A stretch of DNA of 64,000 nt, taken from contig CAWECG010000003.1 in the NCBI GenBank assembly GCA_963807605.1, positions 160,001 to 224,000 of the forward strand. Reading direction: 5' to 3'. The stretch's first letter is position 1. Each line of letters opens with the position of its first letter. A program made the position numbers and the translations under genes. The stretch comes from Candidatus Bathyarchaeota archaeon. GTDB taxonomy: Archaea > Thermoproteota > Bathyarchaeia > 40CM-2-53-6 > RBG-13-38-9. This document shows, in pieces, positions 2,203 to 30,352 of this stretch. Under the pieces are notes generated by a model that saw only the letters and a program-made list of their open reading frames with translations, searched no databases and had not been told where the DNA came from.

Positions 2203-2249
2203 ACCGGAAATTTACGGTGATGAACATCGGGGGTCCGCCTGTGTGAGTG

Positions 2250-2309
2250 CGCCCGTATGCACCTAGAAAATTAAGTGAATCCAACAAGAAAATGCAATCC
2301 TAATTGCAC
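2250..2309 (-). repeat. Dispersed repeat A, partial copy 1
   Basis: Reverse complement matches 7265-7325 and 30376-30435, core TTGGATTCACTTAAYTTTCTA. Confidence 0.85.
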
Positions 2310-2426
2310 TGCTTGGAAGAGTATTTGAGTTTTAGGAAGGAAGAGTCCGACGGGATTCGATGCGTTATTGTTACCGGATTTAGACTCAATTCAATTAAGT
2401 TTTGTACCTGTTTTCAGGAACGTTAA

Positions 2427-2514
2427 TGTGGTGGACCGGGCGGGATTCACACCGTTTTCGGTGCTAGAATCGGGTACAAAAATCACGCAGGTTCAAATCC
2501 CAACGGATTCAAAC
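2427..2514 (+). repeat. Dispersed repeat B (tRNA 3'-end-derived), copy 1; degenerate pieces also at about 2344-2395 and 2541-2562
   Basis: TGGTGGACCGGGCGGGATT is the reverse complement of a tRNA 3' end with CCA; shares CACCGTTTTCGGTGCTAGAAT with the copy at 7355-7440. Confidence 0.8.
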
Positions 2515-2632
2515 TTGTTATAAGACCTGAACCTTATTGATGGCGGGCCCGCAGGTATTTCACCATATAAATGGTCAGATACGTGCTGAATTTGCATCCA
2601 GACGTGTACAAATCAGTACAATACTAGCGCGC

Positions 2633-3737
2633 GGGGTTGTCCCGTTATTAGCGTTTTCATGTTAGGTTTGTCCAGTAGGTTATGCTTCTGGTTTTGGTGG
2701 GTTGTTTGGTGTTGTGTGAGGCTTCTATGGTGTAGAGGAGGCATAGTATGCAGTAGCTGATGTGGATGGTGATGTTTTCTAGTCCTCGTGTCTTGTGGTT
2801 GTTGAGGTTGAGGTGTTCTTTGAGTGATGCGAAGACCAACTCGATGATGGAGCGTTTATTGTAGATGTGTTTGAGGTTTTCTGGGCCGTGTGTTTTGAAG
2901 TCGCTGGTTACTCTGAGGATGTTTTGTCTTTCAGGTTTCTGGTTGGCTGGGTAGGGTATCGCGGTCTTGATTCTGTGTTTTTTAGCGGTCTCTCTGAGTC
3001 TGTTGCTGGAGTATTGACTGTCAGCGGTTAGCTGTCGGATTCTGGTTGCTGTGGTTTTAACTGTCATTTTGAGGAGTGGTATGCTCGGTTTCTTCTCGTT
3101 AGTGTTTGCTGGTGTCACTAGGAATGTTAGGGGTGTGGCTGTGTCTGTATCGACTGTTAGGTGTAGTTTGTAGCCTAACCCGTATGTGCGGTAGGCTCTT
3201 CCTACACGTGCTTGAGGGTCACTGAAGCCTGTTCTATTGTTTATGTTTCGTCTGCTGTAGGCTTTGATGAAGGTGGCGTCCATAGCAACTATTCTTGGTG
3301 TTACATAGCGCTTCTTCAGCAATTTCTTGACCTGTTTGTTTACTATGCGTCTTAGTCTTCTTGTTCCTAGTCGCTGGTTGAATCTTGAGAGTACCGTCCT
3401 ACCGTAGGCTGGCTCCTCATATCTTATGTCGCATATGTCACGTAGCCGCTCATCGATCCATAAGCGATGTTCAAGCTCACGCAGACTGTTTATTCTGAGG
3501 TAGCGTCTGGCAAGGTGTGCCTTGAAGAGTCCTAGAGGGTTACGTGGAGGTTTACCTGGACCTTCTTGATGATAGCAACTAACAACTAGACGTTCAACAA
3601 ATGATAAATCCAGATTACTCAGCAGTGACTCCAGAGTCTCGTACCCTTCTATCTGGAATCTCCTCCAAGTAGAAGGGTGCGGGGCTCAACCCTTATGGAT
3701 CTTTCCGTGTCAACTCAAAGAATATCGGGACAACCCT
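2633..3737 (-). mobile_element. Insertion sequence (DDE, IS5/IS1182-like) with 16-bp terminal inverted repeats and GCGCGC flanking direct repeats
   Basis: GGGTTGTCCCGTTATT at 2634-2649 versus AATATCGGGACAACCC at 3721-3736 (1 mismatch); GCGCGC at 2627-2632 and 3738-3743. Confidence 0.92.
2657..3690 (-). CDS. DDE transposase; the frame is open well upstream of the track start (3322) to about 3686, with an apparent 1-bp shift just after a TTG at about 3690
   Basis: DATFIKA, GYKLH, ADSQY and R-xx-IE-xx-F-xx-LK motifs; the upstream in-frame part reads GPGKPPRNPLGLFKA...SLRELEHRL, a typical IS5/IS1182 N-terminal domain. Confidence 0.88.
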
Positions 3738-3983
3738 GCGCGCTACATTATTGAAAAAAATATCGTGTATAGAAGCATGCAGATGCACCCGCAGTGGGAT
3801 ACCTTTTAGTGTTTTTACCAAAACAGTGGCTGAAATAAAAACTGGTACATGTAAATAAGCAGTTGACACAGACAACCAGTACAGGAAATAAGTATTGCAT
3901 AAACGTAAGATAAGTATGTAGCGCGCGAGAGTCAGAGGTACTTCCTCACAAGTATCTTGCTGTTTACTGTCAGTCGGCAGGTA

Positions 3984-4118
3984 TAGTCTACAAACTTCTA
4001 TTAGGTTTACTTCTTTTACGGGCGGTGTTGTTTCTTTTTTCTTCTGTTATATGGGAAACTGCTAATTTTTCTATTGGAAATTTGCACTTATACTTCTTTT
4101 ATGGTGTCTGCAGCCTAT
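3984..4118 (-). repeat. Dispersed AT-rich repeat C, copy 1
   Basis: Reverse complement aligns with 30137-30276 (for example AAGAAGTAAACCTAATAGAAGTTTGTA), roughly 80% identical by eye. Confidence 0.85.
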
Positions 4119-4163
4119 ACTCGTTTACTTGTTTGCTTCTTCACTTCTTTTTTAGCGCGCGCG

Positions 4164-4562
4164 CAACTAGCTTGATTGTAGGAAAACACGGAATGAAACT
4201 AGAAAGAACTGCCATCTTAGATGGTTTATCGCATTTAGGGAGTTTATCCAAAGAAAATCTTTGATATTTCATATATCTCGCGGTCAACTGTCTTAAGTCT
4301 TGAAACAGCTTTTTTCAGAGGCACGGGCACAATCCTATTACCCTTTAAGCTTACCATGTAGCCGAACTTCTTCTTAGCCACAAGGTCTATCGTCGCCACC
4401 CCAAATCTTGTCCCTAGAACCCTGTCAAAGGCCGTCGGTTCACCACCCCGTTGTATGTGACCTAGAATTGTGGCTCTGGTTTCAAGCCCTGTTTTTTTCT
4501 CTATCTCTCTCGCCAAATAGCCTCCTACCCCCCCAAACCTGGCGTGGTCGAATTCGTCCATC
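4164..4562 (-). pseudogene. Duplicated 3' third of the phosphofructokinase gene plus its downstream 80 bp
   Basis: 399 bp, near-identical inverted copy of 29532-29930 (about 4 substitutions seen); the 5' two-thirds are missing. Confidence 0.95.
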
Positions 4563-4609
4563 GTACACTGCTGGTTTCCATTTCATGTAGCTCAAACGCA
4601 TAGCGCGCG

Positions 4610-5635
4610 CTAGAGTTTCTGGAATAATTCGATGTATCTCTCAGCTATCTTCTCGGCCGTACTCTTCCTGACATACTTTTCCGCTGCTTGGATAGTTTCC
4701 GCCAACATGTCACCGCTTTCCATCACCTCAATGACGCATGCCTCGAATTCATCCGCTGTTCTGTACTTTAGGATCTCCTTATGGAAGTTCTCAAAGAATG
4801 GTGAGTCCAACGCTATGATTGGGCAGCCTGAACCAAGGCATTGATGGGCTGTGCTCGAAACGACTGCTTTCGTCTCAACCTGTCTATTGAGAATAAGAGC
4901 GTCGGAGGCGTGCAAGTAGTCGTAGAGCCTCCCTATATTCGGAGCTTCGTTCCTGATATCCACCTGAATGTTGCTGGCCACTATCCGATTTGGTGCATGG
5001 ATGCTGACTACTAGGAGTAGAATGGGGTAGCGTCTTCCCAGCGTTGAGATGCTCTGCAGCAACTCAAGGTCTTCCTTGACGTGTTGACCGAATACCAGCA
5101 GGATTTCCCTATTCAGCGGCAGACCCAGTTTCTGTCTGACCTCCATTTTATTCCCTTTTACAACAGGGTGACATGGGAAGGGTATGACATCGATTATCTC
5201 TTCCGGGAAGGCCTCCCGAAGAAACTTCCTGTATCTCTGGTCGAAGCAGACTATCGATTCCCATTGAAACTGGTAGAATGAAGGGTCGGAGGGAAGTTTA
5301 GCCTCATGTATTATGTTCACGGTTCTAGCTTTTTTTCTAATGTGGTGAAAGATCTTCTTCAACTCGTCTCTTGGAAGCATACCGAGGTTCTGAACCACGA
5401 AAATATCGTGATCAGAACTCAATATTGGTCGAGGATCAAGGTATCTACTGACTCGGAAACACCTGGTGACGTAGGTCTCATCCTCTCCCACGAATGTGGT
5501 TCCATGGAAACCTGATTGAAGATAGGAATAGAGCCGGAGATCATGCCCTTCTCTAACCCATTCTCTTCCTATCAGCTCGGCGTGAACGGAGGAACCTGCA
5601 TCAAGGTTCCAAGCGCCCATCATACCAATCTTCAA
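4610..5635 (-). CDS. GT-B fold (GT4-like) glycosyltransferase
   Basis: N-terminal MKIGMMGAWN...GHDLRLY, ILLVFGQ, YLHASDALI, LGSGCPII; paralog of the next ORF. Confidence 0.75.
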   Translation of the reverse strand: MKIGMMGAWNLDAGSSVHAELIGREWVREGHDLRLYSYLQSGFHGTTFVGEDETYVTRCFRVSRYLDPRPILSSDHDIFVVQNLGMLPRDELKKIFHHIRKKARTVNIIHEAKLPSDPSFYQFQWESIVCFDQRYRKFLREAFPEEIIDVIPFPCHPVVKGNKMEVRQKLGLPLNREILLVFGQHVKEDLELLQSISTLGRRYPILLLVVSIHAPNRIVASNIQVDIRNEAPNIGRLYDYLHASDALILNRQVETKAVVSSTAHQCLGSGCPIIALDSPFFENFHKEILKYRTADEFEACVIEVMESGDMLAETIQAAEKYVRKSTAEKIAERYIELFQKL

Positions 5636-7327: not shown

Positions 7328-7354
7328 TTCAACAGAGAGGGTTCGGATAATTTT

Positions 7355-7440
7355 TGTGGTGGACCGGTCGGGGTCCGCACCGTTTTCGGTGCTAGAATTG
7401 GTTTCAAAATTCGCGCGGGTTCAGGCCCCGCAGGGTTTGA
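7355..7440 (+). repeat. Dispersed repeat B, copy 2
   Basis: TGTGGTGGACCGG...CACCGTTTTCGGTGCTAGAAT...GGTTCA aligns with 2427-2514; ends at a GCGCGCG run. Confidence 0.82.
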
Positions 7441-23082: not shown

Positions 23083-23158
23083 TGTGGCGGGCCCGACGGG
23101 CTTCGGAGCGTTATTGGTTCTAGATTTGGTTTCATAATTCGACCGGGTTCATATCTCG
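23083..23158 (+). repeat. Dispersed repeat B, copy 3
   Basis: TGTGGCGGGCCCGACGGG...GCGTTATTGGTTCTAGATTTGGTTTCATAATTCG..CGGGTTCA aligns with 7355-7425 and 2346-2395. Confidence 0.75.
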
Positions 23159-25283: not shown

Positions 25284-25463
25284 TCTGATTACCTACTGTG
25301 AATAGTGCGCGCTATACTGCATGACCTCAACGGTCAAACTGACCAACCTCTTAAGCTTTTTCTCGACAAGAACCCTTCTTTATTTACAGATGTCTTACCA
25401 TTCATGTAACTGCGATGTTCTTGCATACCAAGATTTTGGATTGTCAGGTGACATTAATAGGCG

Positions 25464-27074: not shown

Positions 27075-27152
27075 AGCAGTAAGTTAGTTCGAGGTCTCAG
27101 ATATCTATTCGTAAGTACTTCTAAGTGATCTTATCACGCGCAAAGCGCGCGC

Positions 27153-27829: not shown

Positions 27830-28804
27830 ATGCCTAGGATCTACGCAGAGTTAGGTCTGGTGAACACTAAGGAAATGTTCAGTAAAGCCTACGAAGGAGG
27901 CTACGCTATTCCAGGTTACAACTTCAATAACATGGAGCAACTGCAAGCCATCATAATTGGATGCGCAGAAACAAGCTCCCCAGGGATTCTTCAGGTGTCT
28001 AAAGGAGCTCGGACTTATACCAATCAGGCTCTACTGAGGTATATGGCGATAGGAGCCGTTAAGATGGTACGGGAAATGAATAGTCAAATTCCTATTGTTT
28101 TGCACCTAGATCACGGTGACACCTCTGAATTATGCAAGGCTTGCGTGAACAACGGTTTCTCATCTATAATGATAGACGGATCATTTTTGCCTTACGAAGA
28201 GAACGTTGCATTGACAAGGAAGGTTGTAGAATACGCGCATAACTTTGACGTGAGCGTTGAGGGCGAGCTTGGAGTTCTGGCAGGCATCGAAGAGGAAATC
28301 GGTTCCAAAGAAATCCATTACACCAAACCTGAAGAAGTCAGGGACTTCGTCGAGAGAACAGGGCTAGATAGCCTAGCAATCTCAATAGGAACCTCCCACG
28401 GAGCATACAAGTTCAAGTTGAAGCCTGGAGAACCTGCACCAACATTAAGGTTTGACATCTTAGATGAGGTAGCTAGAAGGTTACCGGGATTCCCAATAGT
28501 TCTACATGGAGCTTCCTCTATCCTCACGAAATATGTGGAGATCATAGATGACTTCGGAGGAAACTTGGAGGGTGCTGCCGGGATACCTGAGGATCAGCTC
28601 AGAAGGGCAGCTAGGTCTGCAGTTTGTAAAATAAACATTGACACCGACGGCCGATTGGTATTTACCGCCATGGTTAGAAAATATCTTGCGGAAAACCCTA
28701 AGGAGTTTGACCCAAGAAAATACTTGGGAGTAGCTCGGCAAGAACTTATCGAGGTCATAAAGCAGAAAAACATCAATGTGTTCGGTTCAGCATGGAAGGC
28801 ATGA
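27830..28804 (+). CDS. fba: Class II fructose-1,6-bisphosphate aldolase
   Basis: LHLDHG, MIDGS, VEGELG, IGTSHGAYK, VLHGAS, KINIDTD, FDPRKYL. Confidence 0.95.
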   Translation: MPRIYAELGLVNTKEMFSKAYEGGYAIPGYNFNNMEQLQAIIIGCAETSSPGILQVSKGARTYTNQALLRYMAIGAVKMVREMNSQIPIVLHLDHGDTSELCKACVNNGFSSIMIDGSFLPYEENVALTRKVVEYAHNFDVSVEGELGVLAGIEEEIGSKEIHYTKPEEVRDFVERTGLDSLAISIGTSHGAYKFKLKPGEPAPTLRFDILDEVARRLPGFPIVLHGASSILTKYVEIIDDFGGNLEGAAGIPEDQLRRAARSAVCKINIDTDGRLVFTAMVRKYLAENPKEFDPRKYLGVARQELIEVIKQKNINVFGSAWKA

Positions 28805-29850
28805 ATTTGAAGACTAATGCTGGCAAAGTCGGAATCTTGACAGGCGGAGGGGACTGCCCTGGCATGAACGCCGTTATAAGGGCCATAGTACGGAAAGGGA
28901 TACAAGACTACAACTATACAGTCATGGGCATTAGGAACGGGTGGAAGGGTCTACTCGACCAGGATTTCTGTGATTTAGACCCGAAATCAATTTCGGGAAT
29001 ACTGAATAAAGGCGGAACAATACTTGGGACATCAAGAACCAACCCCGGAAAGATCCCGAAAGGATACGAGAAAGCTCGCAAGAACCTGAACAAACTCAGT
29101 TTAACATCTCTCATAGCCATAGGGGGAGACGACACGCTAGGGGTAGCTTACAGGCTTTACGAGATGGGGTGCCCGATTGTAGGCGTCCCCAAGACCATCG
29201 ACAATGACCTATATGCCACCGACCTCACTTTTGGCTTCGACACTGCCATAAACGTCGTCATGGAAGCCCTAGACAGGCTCCACTCGACAGCTGAATCTCA
29301 TCACAGAGTCTTGGTAGTTGAAGTTATGGGCAGGAATACTGGCTGGATAGCAGTGTACGGCGGTATCGCGGGAGGAGCAGATGCAATACTAATTCCAGAG
29401 GACCCTTTCGACGTAGACGACGTCTGCTGTATTATAAGGAAGAGGCAATCTCGAGGAAAGAATTTCAGCATAGTCGTGGTTGCTGAAGGAGCCATTCCTA
29501 AACAGATAGGTAAAGCCGTCGCGGCAGATGAGATGGACGAATTCGGCCACGCCAGGTTTGGGGGGGTAGGAGGCTATTTGGCGAGAGAGATAGAGAAAAA
29601 AACAGGGCTTGAAACCAGAGCCACAATTCTAGGTCACATACAACGGGGTGGTGAACCGACGGCCTTTGACAGGGTTCTAGGGACAAGATTTGGGGTGGCG
29701 GCGATAGACCTTGTGGCTAAGAAGAAGTTCGGCTACATGGTAAGCTTAAAGGGTAATAGGATTGTGCCCGTGCCTCTGAAAAAAGCTGTTTCAAGACTTA
29801 AGACAGTTGACCGCGAGATATATGAAATATCAAAGATTTTCTTTGGATAA
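28801..29850 (+). CDS. PfkA-family phosphofructokinase with a PPi-type signature
   Basis: TGGGDCPG, GGDDT, PKTIDND, EVMGR, LGHIQRGG; ATG at 28801 overlaps the fba stop. Confidence 0.93.
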   Translation: MNLKTNAGKVGILTGGGDCPGMNAVIRAIVRKGIQDYNYTVMGIRNGWKGLLDQDFCDLDPKSISGILNKGGTILGTSRTNPGKIPKGYEKARKNLNKLSLTSLIAIGGDDTLGVAYRLYEMGCPIVGVPKTIDNDLYATDLTFGFDTAINVVMEALDRLHSTAESHHRVLVVEVMGRNTGWIAVYGGIAGGADAILIPEDPFDVDDVCCIIRKRQSRGKNFSIVVVAEGAIPKQIGKAVAADEMDEFGHARFGGVGGYLAREIEKKTGLETRATILGHIQRGGEPTAFDRVLGTRFGVAAIDLVAKKKFGYMVSLKGNRIVPVPLKKAVSRLKTVDREIYEISKIFFG

Positions 29851-30006
29851 ACTCCCTAAATGCGATAAACCATCTAAGATGGCAGTTCTTTCTAGTTTCA
29901 TTCCATGTTTTCCTACAATCAAACTAGTTGAAACATTTATACTATTGTGCTCTTCATGTGCTTTTTCTTAGTAGCAAACCCGAGTCGTTCATTTAGCAAG
30001 CGCGCG

Positions 30007-30136
30007 CTAAGAAAAGCAGAATTGAAAGCTGTTTGCGACCCAATGTATGGGACAGCTAGGGGATACTTGGATCTTATCTTGCGCAGTATCGGTTGTGAGG
30101 TCACGGTAATTCACGATGAGCTTGACCCTGACTTCG
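30007..30136 (+). pseudogene. Internal fragment of phosphomannomutase/phosphoglucomutase
   Basis: LKAVCDPMYGTARGYL...IHDELDPDF matches domain II; starts at the GC run at 30000-30007. Confidence 0.8.
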
Positions 30137-30276
30137 ATAGGCTACAGACACCAGATAAGAAGTAAGAGTGTAAATTTCTAATAGAAAAATTACCTATTTT
30201 CTGTATAATAGAAGAAAAAAGAAGAACCAATATCATCCGTAAAAAAGAAGTAAACCTAATAGAAGTTTGTAAACTA
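30137..30276 (+). repeat. Dispersed repeat C, copy 2
   Basis: Aligns with 3984-4118 (inverted); ends exactly at GCGCGCGC 30277-30284. Confidence 0.85.
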
Positions 30277-30352
30277 GCGCGCGCTCAGGAATGATAGAGT
30301 GTTGAACCAATGCGCTATCGCTGGATAATATCCAGTCAAACTCGTCCTTACC

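What the first reader, a model, noticed from the sequence alone, without database searches (positions are those of the whole stretch)
4155..4612. Internal control 1: the pfk duplicate ends in (GC)5 where the intact copy has no GC run
Seen: 4164-4562 is an inverted, near-identical copy of 29532-29930. The intact locus continues CTAGTTG-AAACATTT, whereas the duplicate continues CTAGTTG-CGCGCGCGC. The other end has about 38 bp of unrelated filler and then TAGCGCGCGCTA, which overlaps the stop codon of the neighbouring glycosyltransferase. Inference: the run was added de novo during a recent event.
Basis: seen in the sequence. Interest (0 to 1): 0.8.

Follow-up and report, generated by a model that had tools for sequence, protein, structure and literature searches.

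The report
Partial pfk copy ending in GC palindrome
A 399-base inverted copy of the end of a sugar-kinase gene in an uncultured archaeon really does end in a GCGCGCGCGC run, but the "filler" is native DNA, the second GC run is older than the copy, and a related strain has a GC run at the same spot beside its intact gene, so this is not clean proof that the run was newly written.

Summary
The copy is real. Window 4164-4562 is an inverted copy of pfk 29532-29930 with 4 mismatches in 399 nt, and the genome holds only these two copies. It ends in (GC)5 where the present intact locus has none.

Two parts of the finding fail:
- The 38-nt "filler" (4563-4600) is native DNA downstream of the neighbouring gene. 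It is conserved in more than 10 related metagenome contigs.
- TAGCGCGCGCTA (4601-4612) is an older, separate patch. It replaces 22 native nt and also occurs in a related strain that lacks the pfk copy.

The left (GC)5 is ambiguous:
- A relative's intact pfk carries GCGCGC at exactly the same nucleotide.
- The two loci share two more collinear old repeats (82% and 77% identity).
- An 11-nt identity with pfk abuts the other junction.

I read the copy as made by ectopic copy-and-join repair, with the self-complementary GC run as the joining point. The run was probably already present. De novo writing keeps about 30%.

Genome-wide, 54 of 274 boundaries of low-copy duplications carry such a run, 48 of them in one copy only.

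The scan has reported this GC-palindrome junction phenomenon before, on this genome and on other Bathyarchaeia DNA.

The parts
4155..4164 (.). (GC)5 run at the junction between repeat R (copy A) and the pfk copy. The preceding A (4154) gives the canonical TA flank on the R side. There is no T on the pfk side.
   Evidence: R copy C (G000 C3:982584-982758) runs on without a GC run at this point.
4164..4562 (-). Inverted partial copy of pfk. It holds the last 105 codons (4247-4561, stop 4244-4246) plus 80 nt of 3' flank (4164-4243). It is a pseudogene fragment with G252D and A304T relative to the intact gene.
4563..4600 (-). Native DNA downstream of the neighbouring gene, not filler. In close relatives it is the 3' extension of that gene.
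   Evidence: X1 contig 2 runs from 5000 to 4563 and then into the native continuation.
4563..4573 (-). Native 10-11 nt abutting the junction (AGCAGTGTAC; TAGCAGTGTAC in relatives). The same word occurs in pfk at 29348-29358 in the same orientation, 173 nt before the copy starts.
   Evidence: A random genomic 11-mer lies in pfk sense with P = 2.8e-4, a 10-mer with P = 1.3e-3.
4601..4612 (.). TAGCGCGCGCTA, an older and independent GC patch. It replaces about 22 native nt with 11 nt and supplies the stop codon of ORF 4610-5635.
   Evidence: It is present (with G4609A) in X1 without the pfk copy. L012 and L026 also have it, followed by other DNA.
4610..5635 (-). Neighbouring 341-aa gene, weakly glycosyltransferase-like.
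   Evidence: It has 34 related loci in metagenomes.
3984..4153 (+). Repeat R, copy A. It is 82% identical to copy B at 30137-30276 and about 79% to copy C on C3:982584-982758. It is cut short by the (GC)5 run.
28792..29850 (+). Intact pfk (352 aa; PF00365, E 2.9e-112).
29532..29930 (+). Source segment of the copy in the intact locus.
29931..30136 (+). What follows the intact pfk flank: 69 nt of unknown origin (29931-29999), GCGCGCGC (30000-30007), then a phosphoglucomutase domain II fragment.
30137..30284 (-). Repeat R copy B (30137-30276), ending in GCGCGCGC (30277-30284).
2243..2356 (-). Third collinear block shared with the intact locus (77% identical to 30330-30441).
2625..3745 (-). IS5-like insertion sequence sitting inside a GC palindrome. 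It is one of 7 copies, all flanked the same way.

Best explanation
Window 4164-4562 is a real, slightly decayed pseudogene fragment. It is an inverted copy of the last 105 codons of pfk plus 80 nt of its 3' flank.

I infer that it arose by ectopic copy-and-join repair (synthesis-dependent or microhomology-mediated template switching) between two loci that were already old paralogous patchworks.

On the side of the neighbouring gene the copy is joined directly to native DNA, with no filler and no GC run. That junction lies next to an 11-nt word that also occurs in pfk, which suggests priming or end capture by microhomology, with 173 nt skipped or lost later.

On the other side the copy ends in a (GC)5 run. 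This run belongs to the genome's iterated palindrome (T)A-GCGCGCGC-T(A). The palindrome sits at about a fifth of all duplication boundaries and is reused as a breakpoint.

Because the run is self-complementary, it can pair with any other such run in either orientation. I think a run already stood at the end of pfk's 3' flank, and perhaps also at the end of repeat R, and served as the joining point. On this view the run was copied or merged, not written anew.

Shown: the copy, both junction sequences, the native origin of the 'filler', the earlier origin of the right-hand run, the run in a relative's pfk locus, and the genome-wide enrichment.

Inferred: the repair mechanism, the direction of copying, and the state of the donor at the time.
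For: - The copy is real. It has 399 nt with 4 mismatches, and the copy carries the two amino-acid changes, G252D in the FGH motif and A304T.
- The 'filler' is native, and the empty right junction is seen in X1 and in L018, L022 and L041.
- X3 contig 13 is an intact pfk whose flank matches the copy down to 4159. It reads TA-GCGCGC then AACTAG and has no T on the pfk side, just like the copy.
- X3 appears to share the copy's C at 4171, 7 nt from the boundary, where the intact G000 copy has T. This is inferred from a missing row in a table that omits differences near a piece's end.
- Three collinear blocks in the same orientation link the two loci, at 99%, 82% and 77% identity. R has only 3 copies in the genome, so by my rough estimate its adjacency to both pfk ends has a chance of the order of 1e-4.
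- An 11-nt identity abuts the right junction (P about 3e-4 to 1e-3).
- The run at the neighbouring gene's stop codon is followed by three different sequences in the window, L012 and L026, which shows that existing runs are reused as breakpoints.
- All 7 IS copies lie inside such palindromes.
- Of 274 duplication boundaries, 54 carry a run, against 1-10 in shifted controls.
Against: - The present intact locus in G000 has no run at 29930. The nearest is 69 nt further on. My reading therefore needs at least one later change at that locus.
- Only one short contig (X3, 549 nt, depth 7.5) shows the run in a relative. An independent break at the same nucleotide is unlikely but not excluded.
- R copies A and B are only 82% alike, and no tract of high identity extends into R. 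Homology at R therefore cannot have primed the copying directly.
- The 11-nt identity lies 173 nt from the copy's start, so an extra deletion or template switch must be assumed.
- 48 of the 54 run-bearing boundaries genome-wide have the run in one copy only. Newly written runs explain that more simply.
- No relative shows locus A before the event.
Confidence: 0.5

Rival explanations
1. De novo GC filler. A break was sealed by an unknown end-joining activity that writes an alternating GC patch, and the (GC)5 was synthesised when the pfk fragment was captured.
For: - The run is absent from the present donor and from R copy C.
- Genome-wide, 48 of 54 run-bearing duplication boundaries have the run in one copy only.
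- Clean derived patches exist. At 4601-4612, 22 nt were replaced by 11. At 25307, 9 nt in G001 stand against 20 nt in the window. L013 has a 9-nt insertion.
- Runs are lineage-specific, from 0 to 325 per genome within one family.
- Archaeal primase can do terminal transfer and microhomology joining (PMC12019639, abstract).
Against: - A relative's intact pfk has the run at the same nucleotide with the same non-canonical pfk-side flank.
- The other junction of the same event carries no run.
- The adjacency of R to pfk at both loci is left unexplained.
- The motif has a sharply fixed length and fixed A/T flanks (147 runs of exactly 8; A at -1 in 85%, T at +1 in 82%). That does not look like untemplated addition.
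- A run that already stood at the recipient site gives the same one-sided pattern.
Confidence: 0.3
2. Mobile-element route. R and the 77% block are the end of an integrating element family. One member excised imprecisely from beside pfk, carried 399 nt of host flank with it, and re-integrated next to the neighbouring gene. The boundary after CTAGTT is then an attachment-site edge that different elements use again.
For: - Three different sequences follow the same nucleotide in G000 locus B, G000 locus A and X3.
- R and the 77% block lie in the same order beside both pfk ends.
- The boundary lies just after the 8-nt palindrome AACTAGTT.
- A relative has a one-gene cassette flanked by two identical TAGCGCGCGCT.
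Against: - R and the third block are only 77-82% identical while pfk is 99%, so they did not move in the same event.
- I did not look for or identify an integrase at either locus.
- The right junction is a plain join to native DNA with no repeat of the left junction.
Confidence: 0.1
3. IS-driven rearrangement. The IS5-like element that inserts into GC palindromes made the junction by intramolecular transposition or by recombination between copies. It was later lost and left the target palindrome behind.
For: - 7 of 7 IS copies lie between half palindromes.
- One copy lies 420 nt from the junction, at 2625-3745.
- A second family (43% identical transposase, 7 copies) exists. At least one of its copies has runs at both ends.
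Against: - There is no IS end or terminal repeat at 4155-4164.
- Genomes rich in runs lack this IS both as DNA and as protein: G010 has 227 runs, G007 165, G004 158 and G003 120.
- Genomes with IS remnants have few runs (G012 7, G014 3).
- It requires precise loss of the IS.
Confidence: 0.07
4. Assembly artefact. The copy is a chimeric join in the metagenome-assembled genome.
For: No read or contig of the source sample could be laid, and no contig bridges either junction.
Against: - The two copies differ at 4 sites.
- At the two sites where the tables show it (4189, 4393) the relatives' contigs carry the intact copy's letter. That fits a separately evolving sequence, not a collapsed or misjoined repeat.
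- The genome is in 5 contigs.
- The right junction joins native DNA exactly where a relative's sequence diverges.
Confidence: 0.03

Closest known systems
HIP1 (GCGATCGC), the highly iterated palindrome of cyanobacteria (PMC5861425, PMC4390886)
   Same: It is an 8-nt GC-rich palindrome, tens to hundreds of times over-represented, lineage-specific in abundance, and without a settled function.
   Different: HIP1 is conserved within and between genes and is thought to be kept by selection (PMC5861425, abstract). Here the runs are about 1 per 9 kb and lie at synteny breaks and duplication boundaries. They differ between close strains and carry fixed A/T flanks. A link to methyltransferases was not tested.
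Filler DNA and microhomology at end-joining junctions, including archaeal primase PriSL-mediated MMEJ (PMC12019639)
   Same: Extra bases sit at a junction and are absent from the present parental sequences. Small deletion-plus-insertion patches occur. A microhomology lies next to the other junction.
   Different: Known fillers vary in sequence and length. Here the sequence is nearly fixed and palindromic. At this locus the run may have been inherited from the donor.
Microhomology-mediated break-induced replication / template switching (MMBIR, FoSTeS; own knowledge)
   Same: An inverted partial duplication lies 25 kb from its source. A short identity (11 nt) sits at a junction. More than one template switch seems to be needed.
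   Different: The process is described mainly in bacteria, yeast and humans. It predicts no fixed palindrome at the junction.
REP/BIME extragenic palindromes targeted by insertion sequences (own knowledge)
   Same: Short palindromes between genes serve as insertion targets for specific IS families.
   Different: REPs are longer (20-40 nt) imperfect hairpins spread by a dedicated transposase. Here the unit is 10-12 nt, and its abundance does not follow the IS.

Membership tests
Highly iterated palindrome (HIP1-like) | Short palindrome strongly over-represented against a composition-matched expectation | tested here: met
   22 observed against 0.47 expected in the window. The genome has 298, of which 106 are AGCGCGCGCT. 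Runs of exactly 8 dominate, with A at -1 in 85% and T at +1 in 82%.
Highly iterated palindrome (HIP1-like) | Sites conserved between related genomes (kept by selection) | tested here: not met
   At 4601-4612 and 25307, close relatives have native sequence without the run. At 27145, homology to G001 simply ends at the run and G001 has none there. Counts range from 0 to 325 within one family.
Highly iterated palindrome (HIP1-like) | Cognate orphan DNA methyltransferases | not tested
   No search for GCGC- or GCGCGC-specific methyltransferases was run.
Non-templated or filler insertion at an end-joining junction | Junction bases absent from both parental sequences | tested here: inconclusive
   The run is absent from the present donor and from R copy C. 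It is present at the same nucleotide beside a relative's intact pfk. The recipient site before the event is unknown.
Microhomology-mediated template switching / SDSA | Short identity between the recipient end and the donor at the junction | tested here: inconclusive
   An 11-nt identity abuts the junction (P about 3e-4), but it lies 173 nt before the copy's start in pfk.
Transposon or IS with target-site duplication | Terminal inverted repeats and a transposase inside the duplicated segment, with a direct repeat of the target at both ends | tested here: not met
   The segment is pure pfk sequence. It has no IS terminal repeat and has a GC run at one end only.
Integron-like gene cassette | Recombination site at each cassette border and an adjacent integrase | tested here: not met
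   The right border (4562/4563) has no run. The run at 4603-4610 predates the copy. An integrase was not searched for.

The most novel reading that the evidence does not exclude
In this Bathyarchaeia lineage an unknown DNA-joining activity writes a nearly fixed palindrome, (T)A-GCGCGCGC-T(A), into broken DNA. On this reading the (GC)5 at 4155-4164 is such a freshly written seal on a captured gene fragment. The run at 4601-4612 would be an earlier seal of the same kind.
Probability: 0.3. Interest if true: 0.8.

Novelty: new variant of a known kind. Interest (0 to 1): 0.5.

Why it matters
If that claim were true, it would point to an undescribed repair or joining route in a very abundant, uncultured archaeal group.

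This check shows that the control is weaker than it looked. Half of it rests on native DNA and on an older run. The other half is matched by a run at the same spot in a relative.

The same work also adds independent numbers for the general pattern. One in five boundaries of low-copy duplications carries such a run, almost always in one copy only. Existing runs are reused as breakpoints. The question therefore narrows to whether runs are scars, hot spots or both.

Tried and rejected
- Source of the "filler": a short-word BLAST of 4563-4600 against the whole genome found only chance 12-16-mers. The reason is now clear, since the stretch is native.
- Rfam: no RNA family lies in or near the region.
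- Sequencing runs: no served run holds more than 0.27 of the words of 3700-5000. The four runs laid are relatives, and none bridges a junction. I draw no conclusion about habitat or absence from them.
Strain-level contigs of the neighbouring gene could therefore not be fetched that way.
- One search failed because the query was one base too long. I did not repeat it.
- The same-genus genome G001 has no pfk that DNA or protein search could find, so the donor flank could not be polarised with it. pfk is patchy among relatives (57%, 49% and 44% identity in three other genera).
- Empty sites of the IS copies were sought in G001 and not found. Flanks were missing or only 70% alike. The choice between "IS targets the palindrome" and "the palindrome is part of the IS end" was therefore not settled directly.
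- A 20-nt piece of the X3 flank was not found in G000 or in any fetched locus.
- The native continuation downstream of the neighbouring gene, as seen in relatives, is absent from G000. A simple inversion is therefore excluded.
- Gene conversion within an older pfk copy was considered and rejected. No diverged pfk homology flanks the 99% tract.
- A transcription terminator was considered and rejected. A 10-nt run has no loop, and the T-run precedes it.

Full report
**What is there**

The window is G000:C3:160001-224000 of a 2.65-Mb, 5-contig genome with 47% G+C. Earlier scan notes place it in uncultured Bathyarchaeia; I did not test that.

Window 4164-4562 is an inverted copy of 29532-29930. 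It has 399 nt and 99% identity, and it is the only other copy in the genome. The four differences lie at 4171, 4189, 4393 and 4548.

The source is the 3' end of an intact phosphofructokinase gene (28792-29850; PF00365, E 2.9e-112). The copy holds its last 105 codons, beginning at an internal Met, plus 80 nt of 3' flank. The copy carries G252D, in the FGH motif, and A304T.

After CTAGTTG the intact locus reads AAACATTT and the copy reads CGCGCGCGC.

**The "filler" and the second run**

A metagenome scan with the neighbouring 341-aa protein returned 34 related loci. In more than ten of them the DNA after the gene reads, base for base, like window 4600-4563. In L018, L022 and L041 it ends in the same ...AGCAGTGTAC before continuing with ATTAGCG. 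So 4563-4600 is native DNA, not filler.

Those relatives have about 22 nt where the window has the 11-nt TAGCGCGCGCT. The palindrome at 4601-4612 is therefore a derived patch of its own, and it supplies the gene's stop codon.

A contig of a related strain (run X1, record 2) covers 5000-4563 without gaps. It includes this patch (with G4609A) and then runs into the native ATTAGCG continuation. The right-hand run thus exists without the pfk copy and predates it.

L012 and L026 have the same patch after the same codon, followed by unrelated DNA. Once present, the run was reused as a breakpoint.

**The left junction**

Left of the run lies a roughly 170-nt repeat, R, with three copies in the genome. 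Copy A is at 3984-4153. Copy B is at 30137-30276, next to the intact pfk. Copy C is on C3:982584-982758. Copy C reads on where copy A stops at A-(GC)5, so the run truncates R.

Run X3 (record 13, 549 nt) is an intact pfk of a relative. It runs on beyond 4562 into pfk, and its flank matches the copy down to 4159. It therefore reads TA-GCGCGC directly before AACTAG. This is the same nucleotide as the copy's end, with the same missing T on the pfk side.

X3 also seems to share the copy's C at 4171. That is inferred from the absence of a row in a table that omits differences near a piece's end.

**The two loci are related beyond pfk**

Read on the minus strand, locus A shares three collinear blocks with locus B:
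- 4562..4164 = 29532..29930 (99%)
- 4118..3984 = 30137..30276 (82%)
- 2356..2243 = 30330..30441 (77%)

With only three R copies in 2.65 Mb, my rough estimate for R lying beside both pfk ends by chance, in the same order and orientation, is of the order of 1e-4. The copy is therefore not a random capture.

It is also not conversion within an old pfk copy. No diverged pfk homology flanks the 99% tract.

**The right junction**

The native 10-mer abutting the junction is AGCAGTGTAC, and relatives have the 11-mer TAGCAGTGTAC. The same word occurs in pfk at 29348-29358 in the same orientation. A random genomic 11-mer does so with P = 2.8e-4, and a 10-mer with P = 1.3e-3.

This fits priming or end capture by microhomology. 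It lies 173 nt before the copy's start, so a second switch or a later deletion must be assumed.

**The motif genome-wide**

- GCGCGCGC occurs 298 times in the genome. Runs of exactly 8 dominate, with A at -1 (85%) and T at +1 (82%).
- Counts among relatives range from 0 to 325 within one family and are mostly under 20 outside it.
- All 7 copies of an IS5-like element lie between half palindromes. Run-rich genomes G010, G007, G004 and G003 lack that element both as DNA and as protein. The IS uses the runs and does not make them.
- A self-comparison of G000 gave 137 low-copy duplicated pairs. Of their 274 boundaries, 48 have a run within 8 nt in one copy only and 6 in both. Boundaries shifted outward by 100, 300 or 1000 nt give 7, 10 and 1, and boundaries shifted 40 nt inward give 2.
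- In 9 of the 48 one-sided cases the run-less copy has a run within 100 nt further out, as at pfk (70 nt by that count). The figure is 34 of 430 for boundaries with no run.
- Against G001, homology ends exactly at the run at 27145. At 25307 a 20-nt patch with a run replaces 9 nt.

**Reading**

I favour (0.5) ectopic copy-and-join repair in which a self-complementary run that was already present served as the joining point. That run would have stood at the end of pfk's flank, and perhaps also at the end of R.

De novo writing of the run at this event keeps about 0.3. It explains the one-sided pattern genome-wide most simply. It does not explain X3, the run-free right junction, or the shared repeats.

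An element-borne route (0.1), an IS-driven route (0.07) and misassembly (0.03) remain as lesser rivals.

**Known relatives and earlier scan work**

The closest known things are HIP1 of cyanobacteria (PMC5861425, PMC4390886), filler and microhomology at end-joining junctions including archaeal primase-mediated MMEJ (PMC12019639), and template-switch duplications.

I found no paper describing GCGCGCGC junction palindromes in archaea.

The scan has reported the general phenomenon several times, on this genome and on others. One of those reports was later marked down (bold reading 45/100). My result for this locus points the same cautious way.

**Limits**

- The source sample's reads were not available.
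- Only one short contig documents the run in a relative.
- The state of both loci before the event is unknown.

Noticed in passing
L026:834-1870 (metagenome contig Ga0315279_10060313): In a related strain a 1021-nt segment sits right after the neighbouring gene. It carries one gene (a 207-aa membrane protein; weak DUF2567 hit, E 0.012) and is flanked on both sides by the identical 11-mer TAGCGCGCGCT. L012 has a 60-nt segment at the same place.
   Followed up: partly
window 27145-27152 and 25307-25312: Homology to the same-genus genome G001 (88%) stops exactly at the GCGCGCGC at 27145, and G001 has no run there. At 25307 the window has a 20-nt patch with GCGCGC where G001 has 9 nt, with both flanks aligned.
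   Followed up: partly
window 29947-30165: A 72-codon frame joins a hydrophobic N-terminus to a phosphoglucomutase domain II fragment (PF02879, E 2.5e-9). Similarity to the genome's intact gene (C1:446950-447084, 62%) begins right at the GCGCGCGC at 30000-30007.
   Followed up: partly
window 3851-3985: In run X5 a relative joins 3851-3920 to 3985 onward through 21 other letters that contain GCGCGCGC. G000 instead has GCGCGCG at 3921-3927 followed by 57 nt. The two strains have the same two modules with a run at different places in the spacer.
   Followed up: no
window 4610-4612 and relatives L013-L024: In most close relatives the neighbouring gene has TTG in place of the stop codon and reads on for about 22 codons. 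More distant relatives (G034, G040, G014, G011) stop at the same codon as the window.
   Followed up: partly
G000 C1:382005, C3:246970, C1:359551, C3:1079201, C4:42065, C5:38309, C1:344050: A second IS family has 7 copies and a transposase 43% identical to the one at 2657-3322. The pair C1:343573-344712 / C5:37838-38977 has GC runs at both ends in both copies.
   Followed up: no
window 2427-2495, 7355-7423, 23083-23151 and 7349-7439: A 69-nt direct repeat family resembles tRNA. ARAGORN calls 7349-7439 a tRNA of undetermined type. GC runs lie just upstream of two of the copies (7186, 23050). These could be remnants of attachment sites.
   Followed up: no
window 28792-29850: pfk is patchy among relatives. 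It was found in only 3 of 20 other genomes searched (57%, 49% and 44% identity) and not in the same-genus genome G001. It may therefore belong to the accessory genome here.
   Followed up: partly
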